From IMG/VR virus record IMGVR_UViG_2896607866_000006: DNA of 28,573 bases; one strand, 5' to 3'. The position numbers and the translations under genes are program-made. Under the pieces are notes generated by a model that worked only from the letters and a program-made list of their open reading frames with translations, did no database searches and was not told where the DNA came from. Below are positions 1,553 to 18,965 of this stretch, one piece after another (position 1 is the stretch's first letter; every line of letters starts with the position of its first letter). This DNA is from a virus (Duplodnaviria > Heunggongvirae > Uroviricota > Caudoviricetes).

Positions 1553-1741
1553 TCACGAGGACTGAAGTTTCTCGCAATTAAAATTTATCAGTTTTACTTT
1601 CTGCTCTCTGGAAACGCCTGCTTCTTTTTTACCTGAGAGCATTTTTTCGCATTCTGATTTCGTTAGTTTAGATTTTGAATATCTTGTCCAGTTAGTAGGA
1701 GTGCCACCTTCCTTTTCAATAGTGGCGGTAATTTTATACAT
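1553..1741 (-). CDS. rcbA: Small Rac-type early protein (RcbA/YdaC-like), start MYKITAT
   Basis: ORF with GGAGG RBS 7 nt upstream of the ATG at 1741; position between xis and ralR as in Rac; the upstream extension of the 86-aa track ORF overlaps ralR and is rejected. Confidence 0.45.
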   Translation of the reverse strand: MYKITATIEKEGGTPTNWTRYSKSKLTKSECEKMLSGKKEAGVSREQKVKLINFNCEKLQSS

Positions 1742-11983: not shown

Positions 11984-12055
11984 TGTTTTGCGCATGGGCT
12001 TGGAAAACCATGAATCAGATCTTCACTAGATAAAACAACGAACTATGGAGGAAGC

Positions 12056-13147
12056 GTGGGCGGCGAAACTAAGAATATTGATGAGATTGCAGGTATCATT
12101 TCCAGTAGAATTTTTGATGAGTTAGGCTGGAAAACCCAAAATACAACGGATATAAGTTGGGACTGTTGTTTGAGATCTCATCTAAACGCTAAACAACTTT
12201 TATCTGAAAACCCAAAAAAAACTCATCCTACGGATGTAGTCTTCAAATATAAAGATCCTTATTCAGATATAACTCAGTATATACAAACAGATTTAAAATC
12301 TTATTGTGCCAGCACGCTTGACGGTACAAAATCAATATTGAACACTGTACGAAGTTTATCACAACAGGTAGCTTGCGCGCCAAGAAGTCCTGAGTGGCGG
12401 CGTCTATTTGTTGACAGCACAAATGAGAAATATCAAGTTAACGGCCTACTTTTTATATATAATCATGACAATAAATATGACTCTGATTTAATTGAGAAAT
12501 TAAATGGAGCAGCCACAGCAAGTTATGATTTTCCAGAGAACTCTGTGATTGCCGTTTTTGACCCAACTATGATCAGATTTTTACTAGATGTTACAGAACA
12601 CATCGAGACTAGAAGAGGAATTACTGACAAAGTAACACAAGAAACAAATATGTTATGGCAAAAAATTCCTGAGATAGAGAACTGTACATATTTTTACCCT
12701 GACAAACATAATAAAATAGCAACGAAAGGGAAAATCCTTCCAGCCACAATTGAAATGATAACATCTGGGATGATTTTTTACTCATATGAACACGAATATA
12801 TTAGAAATGATGGTGGCGATAGAATAAGAAATAAAATATTGAATATATTCTGGAAGGAAGAGGTTGATTCCAGTAACCACTTTATATTTCTTTTAGAGTA
12901 TATATTTAACTATCAATTACTCAATCAATTTGACAAAATATTTGTTATAACTCCGTTCTCATCACACTCAAGCATTCATTTGCAATCCGCCATTAATGAT
13001 TACATAGGAATATATTCTTTCACTCAATCTCATATAGAAACGTTAAAGGAAAAAATAGTATCCATTCCTTTTGTTAATCAAAAGCTATCTATATTTGAGT
13101 ACCAGGTTGCCAGCAAGCAGGTGAATAGAAAATGTCACTTTTCATAA
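12056..13147 (+). CDS. Cassette gene A: 363-aa protein of unknown function, possible N-terminal PD-(D/E)xK-like motif
   Basis: GTG start with GGAGG RBS 4 nt upstream; AT-rich codon usage unlike flanking prophage genes; HPTDVVFKY ... YIQTDLKSY has the spacing of a D ... (D/E)xK nuclease core (inference only). Confidence 0.55.
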   Translation: MGGETKNIDEIAGIISSRIFDELGWKTQNTTDISWDCCLRSHLNAKQLLSENPKKTHPTDVVFKYKDPYSDITQYIQTDLKSYCASTLDGTKSILNTVRSLSQQVACAPRSPEWRRLFVDSTNEKYQVNGLLFIYNHDNKYDSDLIEKLNGAATASYDFPENSVIAVFDPTMIRFLLDVTEHIETRRGITDKVTQETNMLWQKIPEIENCTYFYPDKHNKIATKGKILPATIEMITSGMIFYSYEHEYIRNDGGDRIRNKILNIFWKEEVDSSNHFIFLLEYIFNYQLLNQFDKIFVITPFSSHSSIHLQSAINDYIGIYSFTQSHIETLKEKIVSIPFVNQKLSIFEYQVASKQVNRKCHFS

Positions 13148-13157
13148 GGAGTATGAC

Positions 13158-14405
13158 ATGAATAAATATCAAGCTACGTTGTTTTCAAACGAAAGTGACA
13201 TTTATACCGCCCTCCACTCTAACAGTGCAAAAATCACAGATGTTACATTAAGGAAAATCGCCTTCAATAGAGGGATAATTTTCCCATCTAACTTATCAAA
13301 AGAGGTATTGATAGAAAAATTATCAGACCTGCCATTTTCATATAATCACATCAGAGAAGTACAAGATAAACTGGCAACCAAACCCAGCCAAGACGTCTTC
13401 TCAGTAAAACGTATATATGAAGAATTTGATATAGAGAAACTCTATGACGTTGTAAACAAAGTGAAAGAAAATAGACCCAAGTTGCTAGGGCATGAGAAAA
13501 TTGATCATTACTCAGGCTTGCAAACCTATCATATATCTATTGATTATACTGAGTTTGATTTTAGAAGGGGTAAGTTTCAGCAGAAAAAATTGTACAGTGG
13601 GAGTATAGTTTTTATAGTAAAAAAAGGATATGTTTCAGTAAGATATAACTATACGCCACGCATTTCAGAAATTCTCAAGCAAATAATTGATACATATTCA
13701 TCAACAGTTTGTAACAACATAGTTGTCAACGAAATAGATTTATCAAGTATCGTCGATACAGATCTTAGGAATATTTTTGCTGTTCATCTTTATGATTTTG
13801 ATGGAAATTATAAAAAAACAGGACTTGAATATGCTGGTCTTGAAAAGGTTAGAGTAAGCAGAATAAAAACATCTCTGGATATTAATGGAGATAATCTCGA
13901 AGGAAATAATAACGAAGAAACACAAGAGTTATTAAACAAGATTTCACCTTCTACAGATAACGAAAATGATGATGACATTAATAATCAGGAAATGGCATCT
14001 GACGATGATGAAAACCTAACTTTTAACATTAACAATGCCGCGTATGATGGCCTATCATTAGTGAACGCACCTCAAATTAAGGAACTGTGCAGTGATGGGT
14101 TTTATCGAAGCTTAATTCGATGGAAGTCATTTTCCTCAGTAGTTAAGAATCATACTATAACTTTTGAACTTAGTTTCGATGATAAATATCTTGGGAAAAA
14201 TATAAAATTCAGAGCGTTATACAAAGAAAGCAACTCTGCATCCGCAGAGAGAGAAAAACTCAGTGACGCAGACTTTGATCAAGTCATGAAACAATTAGAA
14301 GATAAAATATTTTTGATTAATGACTTTATTATCGAAGAGCATACCAAGCGATACCCAGTAACGAAAGCTATGTCTTGCGAGACTTTGAATCAGGAGGCTG
14401 GATGA
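13158..14405 (+). CDS. Cassette gene B: 415-aa protein of unknown function with an acidic low-complexity linker
   Basis: ATG 10 nt after gene A stop with AAGGAG RBS; acidic linker NEETQELLNKISPSTDNENDDDINNQEMASDDDEN separating two regions; no Walker or other recognisable catalytic motif. Confidence 0.6.
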   Translation: MNKYQATLFSNESDIYTALHSNSAKITDVTLRKIAFNRGIIFPSNLSKEVLIEKLSDLPFSYNHIREVQDKLATKPSQDVFSVKRIYEEFDIEKLYDVVNKVKENRPKLLGHEKIDHYSGLQTYHISIDYTEFDFRRGKFQQKKLYSGSIVFIVKKGYVSVRYNYTPRISEILKQIIDTYSSTVCNNIVVNEIDLSSIVDTDLRNIFAVHLYDFDGNYKKTGLEYAGLEKVRVSRIKTSLDINGDNLEGNNNEETQELLNKISPSTDNENDDDINNQEMASDDDENLTFNINNAAYDGLSLVNAPQIKELCSDGFYRSLIRWKSFSSVVKNHTITFELSFDDKYLGKNIKFRALYKESNSASAEREKLSDADFDQVMKQLEDKIFLINDFIIEEHTKRYPVTKAMSCETLNQEAG

Positions 14406-15058
14406 TGATAAAGGTAAAAATTTATAAAGCAGAAAAGGATATAACTAAAAGTGAGTTATTACATAAAGTAAATGACAACCTCTATGATGAAGATAAAGGA
14501 TATGGTTTTCAAATCATTAATAACTCTGAAGTGCTTAAACTAAGATTTACCATGAGAAGCATTAGCAAGCAAAGCTTAGAATATGCTAATGGCGAGCGTT
14601 CAGAGGTTGAAATAGCAACTTACTTAAATGTGGACTTTGGCGTCAGACAAGGGAAAAAAATCATACTATATGCCACTAATCCTCCATTAAGTATGAAAGT
14701 GCCTTATACTATGGTGCAAAAACTATTTGGTGAAGATAGTGGCTTGAGACCAGTAGAATTTGATCTGAGAAAAATTGTAAATGGTCTTTCTGAGGGCTTT
14801 GACATCAAGATAAAATCCATGTCTCTATCTAATATCTCTGTTGATCCTTTTACTTTAGCAAAGACAAAAATAGTAAGCTCAAAGAATCTCCAAGAAATTT
14901 ATCAGAATAAATACATGAATAGTTCGGCCGTTTTTGATTCCGTACATTTCTTCGTTAACGGAATTGAAACGGAATTATCTAGGACGGGTAGATTCCGTGT
15001 GAGAGAGAGTCAGCTTCCAACACTTTTATCCATCTTAGAAACTTTCAGAATTTTGTGA
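14402..15058 (+). CDS. Cassette gene C: 218-aa protein of unknown function
   Basis: Start MMIKVKIYK with GGAGG RBS; ATGA overlap with gene B stop; followed by an intrinsic terminator. Confidence 0.55.
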   Translation: MMIKVKIYKAEKDITKSELLHKVNDNLYDEDKGYGFQIINNSEVLKLRFTMRSISKQSLEYANGERSEVEIATYLNVDFGVRQGKKIILYATNPPLSMKVPYTMVQKLFGEDSGLRPVEFDLRKIVNGLSEGFDIKIKSMSLSNISVDPFTLAKTKIVSSKNLQEIYQNKYMNSSAVFDSVHFFVNGIETELSRTGRFRVRESQLPTLLSILETFRIL

Positions 15059-15074
15059 AATATATAAGGAACTC

Positions 15075-15102
15075 AGGCCTACTTCGTCAGTAGGCCCCTT
15101 TT
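15075..15102 (+). terminator. Rho-independent terminator closing the three-gene cassette
   Basis: aggcctac / gtaggcc stem followed by cccTTTT, 17 bp after the gene C stop. Confidence 0.6.
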
Positions 15103-15612
15103 CCGGTTTGTACTTATCTAGTCATCGATTTGATCGTAATGATTCACACAGGATGCTGTTAGCAATGTCCGCTCTTCGCTCAAAGCGGACTAAAATGTTG
15201 GCTTGTTTCTGACTTAGAGCATTTAAGGAAGTGCTGGTGGTGACTGGTTGTTGTGTTCCATTTCTACAGAATAAAATCACAGAAACTATACCCAATAGTT
15301 GTATTGAATCACTGACGAGACAGCCTCATATTTATCAGGACTGGTGTGCGTCTAATACAGGGGGTTGTCGTGCTGGTTCTCAAATGTGCGCTGGCTATTG
15401 CGGCTGTAATGGCAATTTATTGTCTTGCTGTTGTTCTTATGGAGCGGCTTTCTGATTGATTACATACTGGCTAGAAAAAAGGTGTTACCTTGGTTTATCT
15501 TTGTCCGGCAAGGTGCGCTCATTAATCTTAAGTAAATTTATTGCTCAAGTATTCAGATTACTTCTTATGGTTGAAGTCTCCTGTCAATGTAGAACCAATA
15601 TATTTACAAAAA

Positions 15613-15642
15613 TGAGACCCGTCGGGGATAGCCCTGCCGGGT
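15613..15642 (-). terminator. Putative intrinsic terminator downstream of the YeaR-like gene
   Basis: agacccg / cgggtct stem; on the minus strand it is followed by a T-run (plus-strand A-run 15607-15612). Confidence 0.4.
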
Positions 15643-15673
15643 CTGACTGTTAAAGCATTTTTAATATGATCAT

Positions 15674-16012
15674 CTATTTTTTGGTGCTATAGACTTTTTC
15701 GCCCGAAAAGTCTGGAGCGACCCAAAAGTTAATATTAAACTGAGCATCATCGCTTAGTTCAACACGGTGCCAGTATTGTGGTGGGCTTGTTGCAAAAGCG
15801 CCAGCATTAATGACTACTTTTATCTCCGGTTCAGTAGCATTCTCATCAGTAAAACCATAATATGTTACAGTGCCTTCCATTACGCACAACTGCCCAAAAA
15901 CACCTGCTGCTGTATTATGATGTGTTAATAACGCTGAAGGTACGTTCTCTTTTGTGAAGAACGGAGTTGAGCGTTTGATTACCCAATCTTTAGGAATTCT
16001 CTTGTGTGTCAT
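15674..16012 (-). CDS. DUF1971 / YeaR-like small cupin-type protein, 112 aa
   Basis: Start MTHKRIPKDW with GGAGGAGGTGG RBS; segments RSTPFFTKENVPSA, GFTDENATEPE and FNINFWVAPD resemble recalled E. coli YeaR (RSTPFW ... FNIDFFVAPE). Confidence 0.45.
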   Translation of the reverse strand: MTHKRIPKDWVIKRSTPFFTKENVPSALLTHHNTAAGVFGQLCVMEGTVTYYGFTDENATEPEIKVVINAGAFATSPPQYWHRVELSDDAQFNINFWVAPDFSGEKVYSTKK

Positions 16013-16021
16013 AACCACCTC

Positions 16022-16056
16022 CTCCAAAAGATGCATTAAAAATGCATCTTTTGGAG
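16022..16056. promoter_or_regulatory. Perfect 15-bp-arm palindrome overlapping the RBS of the YeaR-like gene
   Basis: ctccaaaagatgcat (taaaa) atgcatcttttggag; the minus-strand GGAGG Shine-Dalgarno lies inside one arm; no flanking T-run, so not a terminator. Confidence 0.4.
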
Positions 16057-16825
16057 GGTTATGTCAAGCTGTTATGAAACACATAATTGATATGTTGATT
16101 AGAGGAGAAGATAGAATAAATATGGTTGTTTTTCGTATAACTATTTGTTTTACTTTTAGTTTATGCATTCTGTGTGTTAGGAATAAGTTATTAAAGTTTA
16201 ATCAAAAAATCTCGATGTAGTCCACATAGATTACTGTTACTGAACCTTATTGTGTGTATTAGTTGTGTTCTGAAATTTCAGCTTAATTATTTATGATGTA
16301 TTTTTTAACGATAAATATTTTCCCAGGATACCTTTACTGTGTATATAAATAAATTATATACGCATAAATAATGTAAAGGCGTCCTTTTAGATATATCTTA
16401 TCAAATGTTAATGACTTGAGTGGGAAATATGATTCCAGCAACTTATCATGTGGCTACTTTATAAAAATAATGCCCATATAAAACAACAAGCGAAAAGGAT
16501 TACGGATAAAAAAGGAGCGAGATGTGCGAACTTGTTATTTTCCATGTTTAACCACCTTAAATAATTGATGATGACGGGATGATTGCATCTGTAATGCTTT
16601 TATTGAAATGTTATGATAAAAAAGAACTTTTGCATAACATTAAAATGTAATTTATCTAATCGTTTTTAATAATAAGTGTCGTATTTCTATCCTTGTACCA
16701 GCTATTTGATATGTAGTGTTTGTTCATGCTATGTGGGGCTTTACACCATAGCCAGTTTATTTATACTTTATTCGTCAGCCTGAACAACTGGCATCTGCTG
16801 CGCTGCGCCATCGAGAGATTGAGAA

Positions 16826-18707: not shown

Positions 18708-18965
18708 GGGCTGGTTTATTGTATGCCAAATGATTATTAAAAAGGTTGTGTTAATAACAAAATCCGAAATAATATGCCTGCATATTTTTATCTTGCTTAT
18801 ATTCTGCATATTGTGCATAGCAGGCTCATCCCTGCAATCAAAACTGTATGATGAGTATTTTTTGTTTTCCTTTTTTCCAGTCATCTGATGATGACCTGCT
18901 TCTTTTTAATCCGGATCGACATCAGTTTTTTAAGTAAGCGCCCCGAGAAGTACGTAGCGTAAGGA

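What the first reader, a model, noticed from the sequence alone, without database searches (positions are those of the whole stretch)
12056..13147. Cassette protein A carries a possible PD-(D/E)xK nuclease core near its N-terminus
The segment HPTDVVFKYKDPYSDITQYIQTDLKSY has an Asp followed by hydrophobic residues and, 19 residues later, a hydrophobic-x-D-x-K element, which is the spacing and pattern of restriction-endonuclease-fold active sites. An acidic helix (DEIAGIISSRIFDELGW) precedes it. If real, gene A would be the effector nuclease of the cassette.
Basis: inference. Interest (0 to 1): 0.6.

Follow-up and report, generated by a model that had tools for sequence, protein, structure and literature searches.

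The report
Nuclease effector of a 3HP defence cassette
Gene A really does encode a restriction-endonuclease-fold (PD-(D/E)xK) nuclease with an intact, invariant active site, but databases already record this, and it belongs to the known three-gene "3HP" anti-phage system, carried here as cargo in an E. coli Rac-type prophage.

The parts
12047..12052 (+). Shine-Dalgarno GGAGGA, 3 nt before the GTG start of gene A
   Evidence: read directly from the sequence
12056..13147 (+). Gene A (Hp1-like, 363 aa, 42.1 kDa): N-terminal PD-(D/E)xK nuclease domain (about residues 1-190) plus a C-terminal alpha/beta domain of unknown role
   Evidence: PADLOC Hp1 5e-41; phrog_7059 4e-91; PF26115 on all homologues; RefSeq name; fold
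12224..12304 (+). Catalytic beta-hairpin, residues 57-83: H57-P-T-D60 on strand 2 and T-D79-L-K81-S-Y on strand 3
   Evidence: invariant in 219 sequences; strands E56-66 and E73-83; equivalents D49/S69/K71 lie 3.5-4.4 A apart in the AF3 model of GAPS4a
12164..12376 (+). Span holding the predicted structural Zn ligands C37 (12164-12166), H42 (12179-12181), H57 (12224-12226) and C107 (12374-12376)
   Evidence: all at least 95% conserved; equivalents C36/H41/H46/C97 of GAPS4a lie 3.1-3.9 A apart in its AF3 model (my arithmetic). Inference only; no metal was modelled.
13158..14405 (+). Gene B (Hp2-like, 415 aa, acidic): fold unknown; weak N-terminal HeH-like motif (residues 30-53); N/D/E-rich low-complexity segment at residues 236-295
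   Evidence: Hp2 1e-10; phrog_6531
14402..15058 (+). Gene C (Hp3-like, 218 aa from the ATG that overlaps B's stop, pI 9.2): RdgC/RexA/Iml3/Chl4-fold protein, the presumed DNA binder
15076..15104 (+). Terminator-like hairpin GGCCTACT-tcgtc-AGTAGGCC followed by CCTTTTCC, 18 nt after C's stop
   Evidence: read directly from the sequence; its T-run is too short for the scanner's rule

Best explanation
Gene A is the Mg2+-dependent DNase effector of a three-gene anti-phage cassette of the 3HP type, acquired as low-GC cargo by a Rac-type lambdoid prophage. Its N-terminal domain is a PD-(D/E)xK nuclease in which D60 (strand 2) and D79/K81 (strand 3) form the metal-binding catalytic centre. C37, H42, H57 and C107 probably hold a structural zinc. 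Protein C is a basic, RdgC-like protein that probably binds or encircles DNA and acts as the sensor. Protein B is probably the scaffold that joins sensor and nuclease. By analogy with the homologous effector GAPS4a, the complex probably stays inactive until infection produces DNA ends, breaks or aberrant DNA. It then degrades DNA without sequence or self/non-self selectivity, stopping the phage at the cost of the infected cell. Status of each step: (1) Shown here: the fold, the conserved triad, homology to GAPS4a and to Hp1/Hp2/Hp3, conserved three-gene synteny, and the RdgC-like fold of C. (2) Shown by others for relatives: 3HP protects against P1, and GAPS4 is a break-triggered non-selective DNase that needs the equivalent Asp. 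(3) Inferred: activity and trigger of this locus, the roles of B and C, and the Zn site.
Against: No experiment exists for this locus or this sub-family, which is only about 27-32% identical to the relatives whose gene lengths resemble the PADLOC 3HP models. B and C show no detectable sequence relationship to GAPS4b, so the GAPS4 trigger and stoichiometry may not transfer. Foldseek gave no significant hit for the whole chain. No conserved acidic residue on helix 1 can be placed in the active site: the equivalent of the invariant E4 lies about 25 A from the catalytic Asp in the GAPS4a AF3 model, in a low-confidence stretch. I could not obtain coordinates of my own model, so the clustering of D60/D79/K81 is inferred from the strand register and from the homologue's model. 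The reference 3HP was reported active only against P1.
Confidence: 0.65

Rival explanations
1. The cassette is a defence system, but A acts selectively on phage DNA in a restriction-like, non-abortive way (for example on a particular DNA structure, modification or replication intermediate) and does not degrade host DNA.
For: Many structural neighbours are site- or modification-specific restriction enzymes such as FokI, HindIII, AspBHI and MspJI. A keeps the canonical D...DxK, unlike GAPS4a, and has different partner proteins. The reference 3HP had a narrow reported range, P1 only.
Against: The cassette contains no methyltransferase or other self-marking gene. No recognisable specificity domain was found in A. 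The only characterised homologue degrades both host and phage DNA.
Confidence: 0.15
2. The three genes are a phage recombination or replication accessory module, not an immune system. On this view a nuclease works with an RdgC-like modulator of RecA or DNA ends and serves the prophage's own life cycle.
For: The cassette lies between the replication genes and the nin-type genes of a lambdoid prophage, where recombination functions are often encoded. RdgC itself is a recombination regulator.
Against: All three proteins match the models of an experimentally validated defence system. The same trio occurs outside prophages among housekeeping genes, and A and B occur next to restriction-modification genes. 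The cassette is rare, low-GC cargo rather than a conserved phage function.
Confidence: 0.08
3. A is a nuclease-fold protein that no longer cleaves. It would serve as a DNA-binding or sensing module, with toxicity exerted by B or by a host factor.
For: Inactive PD-(D/E)xK domains are common. No conserved helix-1 acid could be placed in the active site. B is of unknown fold.
Against: D60, D79 and K81 are invariant across 219 sequences spanning 24-100% identity, which is the signature of a retained catalytic site. The equivalent Asp is essential in GAPS4.
Confidence: 0.05
4. A cleaves RNA, for example tRNA or mRNA, rather than DNA.
For: Some members of the superfamily are RNases, and the substrate was not tested here.
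Against: The structural neighbours are overwhelmingly DNases. The homologous GAPS4 degrades DNA in vivo. The partner C has a DNA-binding fold.
Confidence: 0.05

Closest known systems
3HP (DefenseFinder Rst_3HP; PADLOC Hp1/Hp2/Hp3), the P2-hotspot three-gene system of Rousset et al. 2022 (PMC9122126)
   Same: All three proteins hit the three PADLOC models in the same gene order, and gene sizes are similar. The system is carried by a temperate phage. The original paper and a 2024 survey list it without predicted domains.
   Different: The matches are moderate (Hp2 1e-10, Hp3 4e-11, partial profile coverage), so this is a divergent sub-family. It sits in a Rac-type lambdoid prophage, not the P2 hotspot. 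This locus has not been tested for anti-phage activity.
GAPS4 (GAPS4a/GAPS4b; bioRxiv 10.1101/2025.09.07.674715; Pfam PF26115 PDDEXK_GAPS4)
   Same: A and GAPS4a share the nuclease domain: hhalign 96.5%, the same N-terminal position of the motif, and the same Cys/His quartet. The equivalent Asp has been shown to be essential. In both cases it is the effector of a multi-protein defence complex.
   Different: A has the canonical HPxD...D[L/F]K, whereas GAPS4a has HGxD...SxK. GAPS4 has two genes and no third gene follows GAPS4b. B and C show no detectable similarity to GAPS4b. The accessions of this window's proteins are absent from the stored (cut) text of the supplements, including the homologue table.
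Lambda RexA of the RexAB exclusion system, and E. coli RdgC
   Different: There is no sequence similarity to the RdgC family (no Pfam hit). C is shorter than RdgC (218 against 303 aa). Its partner is a nuclease, not a RexB-type membrane protein. DNA binding and ring formation have not been tested.
Shedu (SduA) and Hachiman (HamA): PD-(D/E)xK defence nucleases activated by DNA ends or aberrant DNA
   Different: There is no sequence homology, and the sensors differ (the SduA N-terminal domain and the HamB helicase, against the RdgC-like C plus B here).

Membership tests
PD-(D/E)xK phosphodiesterase superfamily | alpha-beta-beta-beta-alpha-beta restriction-endonuclease core fold | tested here: met
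   [not shown]
PD-(D/E)xK phosphodiesterase superfamily | Conserved Asp on strand 2 and (D/E)xK on strand 3 | tested here: met
   D60 219/219, D79 217/219, K81 219/219; located in E56-66 and E73-83
PD-(D/E)xK phosphodiesterase superfamily | The three residues cluster in space to bind metal | tested here: inconclusive
   Coordinates of my model are not exported. In the AF3 model of the homologue GAPS4a the equivalents lie 3.5-4.4 A apart.
PD-(D/E)xK phosphodiesterase superfamily | Metal-dependent phosphodiester cleavage | not testable with these tools
   needs biochemistry
GAPS4 (GAPS4a nuclease domain, Pfam PF26115) | Match to the family profile / homology to GAPS4a | tested here: met
   Precomputed PF26115 on all 71 homologues, including the 100%-identical P0001, unmarked (E<=1e-5); hhalign 96.5%. 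The local Pfam copy lacks the model.
GAPS4 (system) | Non-canonical HGxD...SxK motif | tested here: not met
   HPxD...D[L/F]K in 217/219 family members
GAPS4 (system) | Two-gene (or fused) architecture with a GAPS4b partner | tested here: not met
   Three genes here. B against GAPS4b: hhalign E 0.72. GAPS4b hits neither Hp2 nor Hp3. The GAPS4 locus has no third gene.
3HP (Rst_3HP) | Hp1, Hp2 and Hp3 homologues | tested here: met
   PADLOC PDLC03004 5e-41, PDLC03005 9.6e-11, PDLC03006 4.2e-11
3HP (Rst_3HP) | Collinear, tightly packed three-gene operon | tested here: met
   10-nt gap between A and B and a 4-nt overlap between B and C. The same order occurs in L002 and L004.
3HP (Rst_3HP) | Protection against phage | not testable with these tools
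   Reported only for the reference system, against P1
RdgC/RexA fold group (for protein C) | Two-domain RdgC-type fold | tested here: met
   [not shown]
RdgC/RexA fold group (for protein C) | Sequence membership in the RdgC family | tested here: not met
   No Pfam family at E<=1. The profile search against PDB sequences found nothing significant.
RdgC/RexA fold group (for protein C) | Dimeric ring or horseshoe that binds DNA non-specifically | not testable with these tools
   Only indirect evidence: pI 9.2 and 13 conserved K/R positions

The most novel reading that the evidence does not exclude
3HP and GAPS4 are two branches of one effector family. In the 3HP branch a canonical D...DxK, zinc-stabilised nuclease (Hp1) is controlled by an RdgC-fold DNA-encircling sensor (Hp3), through Hp2. 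The B/C pair may work as a long/short RdgC-like heterodimer, analogous to Chl4/Iml3. That would make the RdgC fold a recurrent DNA-state sensor of prophage-encoded exclusion systems (RexA, Hp3) and would give the so-far domain-less 3HP system a concrete, testable mechanism.
Probability: 0.35. Interest if true: 0.55.

Novelty: new member of a known kind. Interest (0 to 1): 0.33.

Why it matters
The core claim, that A is a PD-(D/E)xK nuclease, is correct but already recorded in Pfam and RefSeq, so it adds little by itself. The useful outcome is a mechanistic frame for 3HP, which the original paper and a 2024 survey list without any classifiable domain. The frame has three parts. The effector is a GAPS4a-type nuclease with an intact canonical active site. 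The third protein has the RdgC/RexA DNA-binding fold. A conserved Cys/His quartet suggests that the His of the published 'HGxD' motif is structural rather than catalytic. These give specific mutants and assays for a defence system that prophages spread among enterobacteria, vibrios, aeromonads and pseudomonads.

Tried and rejected
1. Local Pfam and NCBIfam scans of A gave nothing. This is uninformative, because the local Pfam copy lacks PF26115: GAPS4a itself gets no hit.
2. A sequence search of A against PDB chains found nothing.
4. E4 as the helix-1 catalytic acid, and N136/D138 as extra active-site residues: rejected for now. Their GAPS4a equivalents lie about 25 A and at least 14 A from the catalytic cluster in the AF3 model.
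5. B = GAPS4b, C = part of GAPS4b, and C = paralogue of B: no support from hhalign.
7. The genome scan for GAPS4a relatives returned a single near-identical locus, too little to build a GAPS4b profile.
8. B stays uncharacterised. It has scattered weak HeH/Rho_N hits only and no PDB sequence match.
9. No paper in the library describes a mechanism for 3HP or an RdgC-like defence component other than RexA.
10. The phage (INPHARED) collection has no record carrying the cassette; only the flanks match.

Full report
WHAT IS AT THE COORDINATES. The ORF 12056-13147 (+) encodes 363 aa. It has a GTG start, with GGAGGA at 12047-12052 three bases upstream. It is the first of three tightly packed genes: A (12056-13147), B (13158-14405, 415 aa) and C (14402-15058, 218 aa from the ATG that overlaps B's stop). 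A hairpin with a short T-run follows at 15076-15104. The quoted segment is residues 57-83, with D60, D79 and K81 at nt 12233-12235, 12290-12292 and 12296-12298.

IS IT MORE THAN CHANCE? The pattern alone is not. A D-hydrophobic-hydrophobic...[DE]xK pattern appears in 46% of shuffles of A, and in 13% within the first 100 residues. Conservation decides the question. In 41 homologues down to 26% identity, H57, P58, D60, L80, K81, S82 and Y83 are invariant. A profile search of 1.84 billion representatives found 578 family members. In an alignment of 219 sequences (24-100% identity to A), H57, D60 and K81 are 219/219 and D79 is 217/219, and the motif is HPxD...D[L/F]KSY.

ALREADY KNOWN. Every homologue, including the 100%-identical cluster P0001, carries the precomputed Pfam family PF26115 (PDDEXK_GAPS4), and UniRef names some of them 'GAPS4 PD-(D/E)XK nuclease domain-containing protein'. 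RefSeq names this exact protein (WP_001625141.1) a 'PD-(D/E)XK nuclease domain-containing protein' in E. coli ES5. My own Pfam scan was negative only because the local copy lacks that model.

RELATION TO GAPS4. GAPS4 is a two-protein system (GAPS4a/GAPS4b, a 2:2 complex). Its conserved Asp in an N-terminal 'HGxD...SxK' motif is required for defence. It degrades host and phage DNA and is triggered by DNA breaks, including those caused by nalidixic acid or a T6SS DNase. I transcribed GAPS4a and GAPS4b of E. coli RiKo from the AlphaFold3 file in the preprint's supplement and found a 97%-identical locus in Silvania hatchlandensis. A aligns to GAPS4a with BLASTP E 1e-6, placing H57-P-T-D60 on H46-G-I-D49. 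With hhalign the probability is 96.5% and E is 8e-10 over 208 columns. GAPS4a also hits the PADLOC Hp1 model at 4e-5. The effector is therefore homologous, but A's family keeps the canonical Asp where GAPS4a has Ser.

GEOMETRY IN THE HOMOLOGUE'S MODEL. I took distances from atom records of the GAPS4a AF3 model (the arithmetic is mine). D49 OD2 to S69 OG is 3.5 A, S69 OG to K71 NZ is 3.9 A, and D49 OD2 to K71 NZ is 4.4 A, so this is a compact catalytic centre. C36 SG, H41 ND1, H46 NE2 and C97 SG are all 3.1-3.9 A from one another, which is the geometry of a tetrahedral zinc site modelled without its ion. These four map onto A's invariant C37, H42, H57 and C107. The His of the 'HPxD/HGxD' motif is therefore more likely a structural metal ligand than a catalytic residue (inference). 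The equivalents of A's invariant E4, N136 and D138 lie about 25 A or at least 14 A from the centre, so I do not call them catalytic.

THE CASSETTE. PADLOC matches A, B and C to the consecutive models Hp1 (5e-41), Hp2 (1e-10) and Hp3 (4e-11). PHROGs has a family for each protein. This is the '3HP' system. Rousset et al. [quoted passage not shown] The three-gene order is kept in distant relatives in Pseudomonas and Aeromonas chromosomes. Consecutive locus tags show the same in Yersinia, Morganella, Vibrio and Shewanella. A Kiritimatiellae contig has A and B next to restriction-modification-type genes, but no recognisable C.

CONTEXT. The window is a Rac-type prophage next to ttcA, with integrase, the RalA sRNA, recT/recE, sieB, replication genes and lysis genes. 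The cassette is 33.5% GC against 49-50% in its flanks. It is full-length in only 11 of 5426 complete E. coli genomes, while 1186 genomes match the query region at least partially. It is variable cargo.

MECHANISM. My best-supported reading (confidence 0.65) has four steps. A is the DNase effector. C is the DNA sensor. B is the adaptor. Activation follows an infection-associated DNA state, and DNA is then degraded as in GAPS4.
- Shown here: the fold, the catalytic residues, the homologies, the synteny and C's fold.
- Shown by others for relatives: phage protection by 3HP, the need for the equivalent Asp in GAPS4, DNA degradation, and the break trigger.
- Inferred: everything about the activity, trigger and assembly of this locus, and the Zn site.
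- Rivals: selective restriction-like action (0.15); a phage recombination module (0.08); a non-catalytic nuclease fold (0.05); an RNA target (0.05).

VERDICT. I therefore rate it a new member of a known kind, with modest interest (0.33). Three side results were not found in the searchable literature: the sequence link between 3HP Hp1 and GAPS4a, the RdgC-like fold of Hp3, and the probable Cys2His2 site.

Noticed in passing
[not shown]
   Followed up: yes
window 12164-12376 (+): codons C37, H42, H57, C107 of gene A: This Cys/His quartet is at least 95% conserved in 219 sequences. Its GAPS4a equivalents lie 3.1-3.9 A apart in the published AF3 model, which suggests a structural Zn site. If so, the His of the 'HPxD/HGxD' motif is a metal ligand rather than a catalytic residue.
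   Followed up: partly
window 13158-14405 (+), residues 30-53 and 236-295 of B: B has a weak HeH/LEM-like N-terminal motif (2 of 32 family members, best E 0.0035). It also has a 60-residue N/D/E-rich low-complexity segment (16 acidic, 14 Asn, 2 basic) in the part of B where the 32-sequence family alignment shows no majority residue. Its fold is unknown.
   Followed up: partly
window 18934-21368 and 21688-24122: Two IS66-family copies (TnpB_IS66 plus a 533-aa DDE_Tnp_IS66 transposase) form a perfect 2435-nt inverted repeat, 100% complementary and separated by only 319 nt, inside the prophage late region. This could be a real head-to-head insertion pair or an assembly artefact.
   Followed up: partly
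window 15100-16800, incl. 15674-16036 (-): The low-GC stretch (about 34-38%) continues beyond the cassette. It holds a 120-aa DUF1971/TehB-N-like protein on the opposite strand (phrog_34268), a second cargo gene of unknown role.
   Followed up: no
window 1557-1735 (+) and 27033-27215 (+): Rfam matches above the gathering score: the RalA antitoxin sRNA (225 bits) beside the Rac recET region, and the CssrB sRNA (152 bits) near the right end of the window.
   Followed up: no
L003 5001-7110 (Kiritimatiellae MAG contig): A distant A+B pair lies directly downstream of a PLD/SNF2-helicase gene and a type IIG-like methyltransferase gene. It has no recognisable C gene: 1.4 kb without a credible ORF of that family follows B.
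   Followed up: partly
literature: bioRxiv 10.1101/2025.09.07.674715: The preprint calls the E. coli RiKo catalytic mutant both D49A and D59A. The sequence in its own AF3 file has H46-G-I-D49, so D49 applies to RiKo and D59 to the Vibrio protein.
   Followed up: yes
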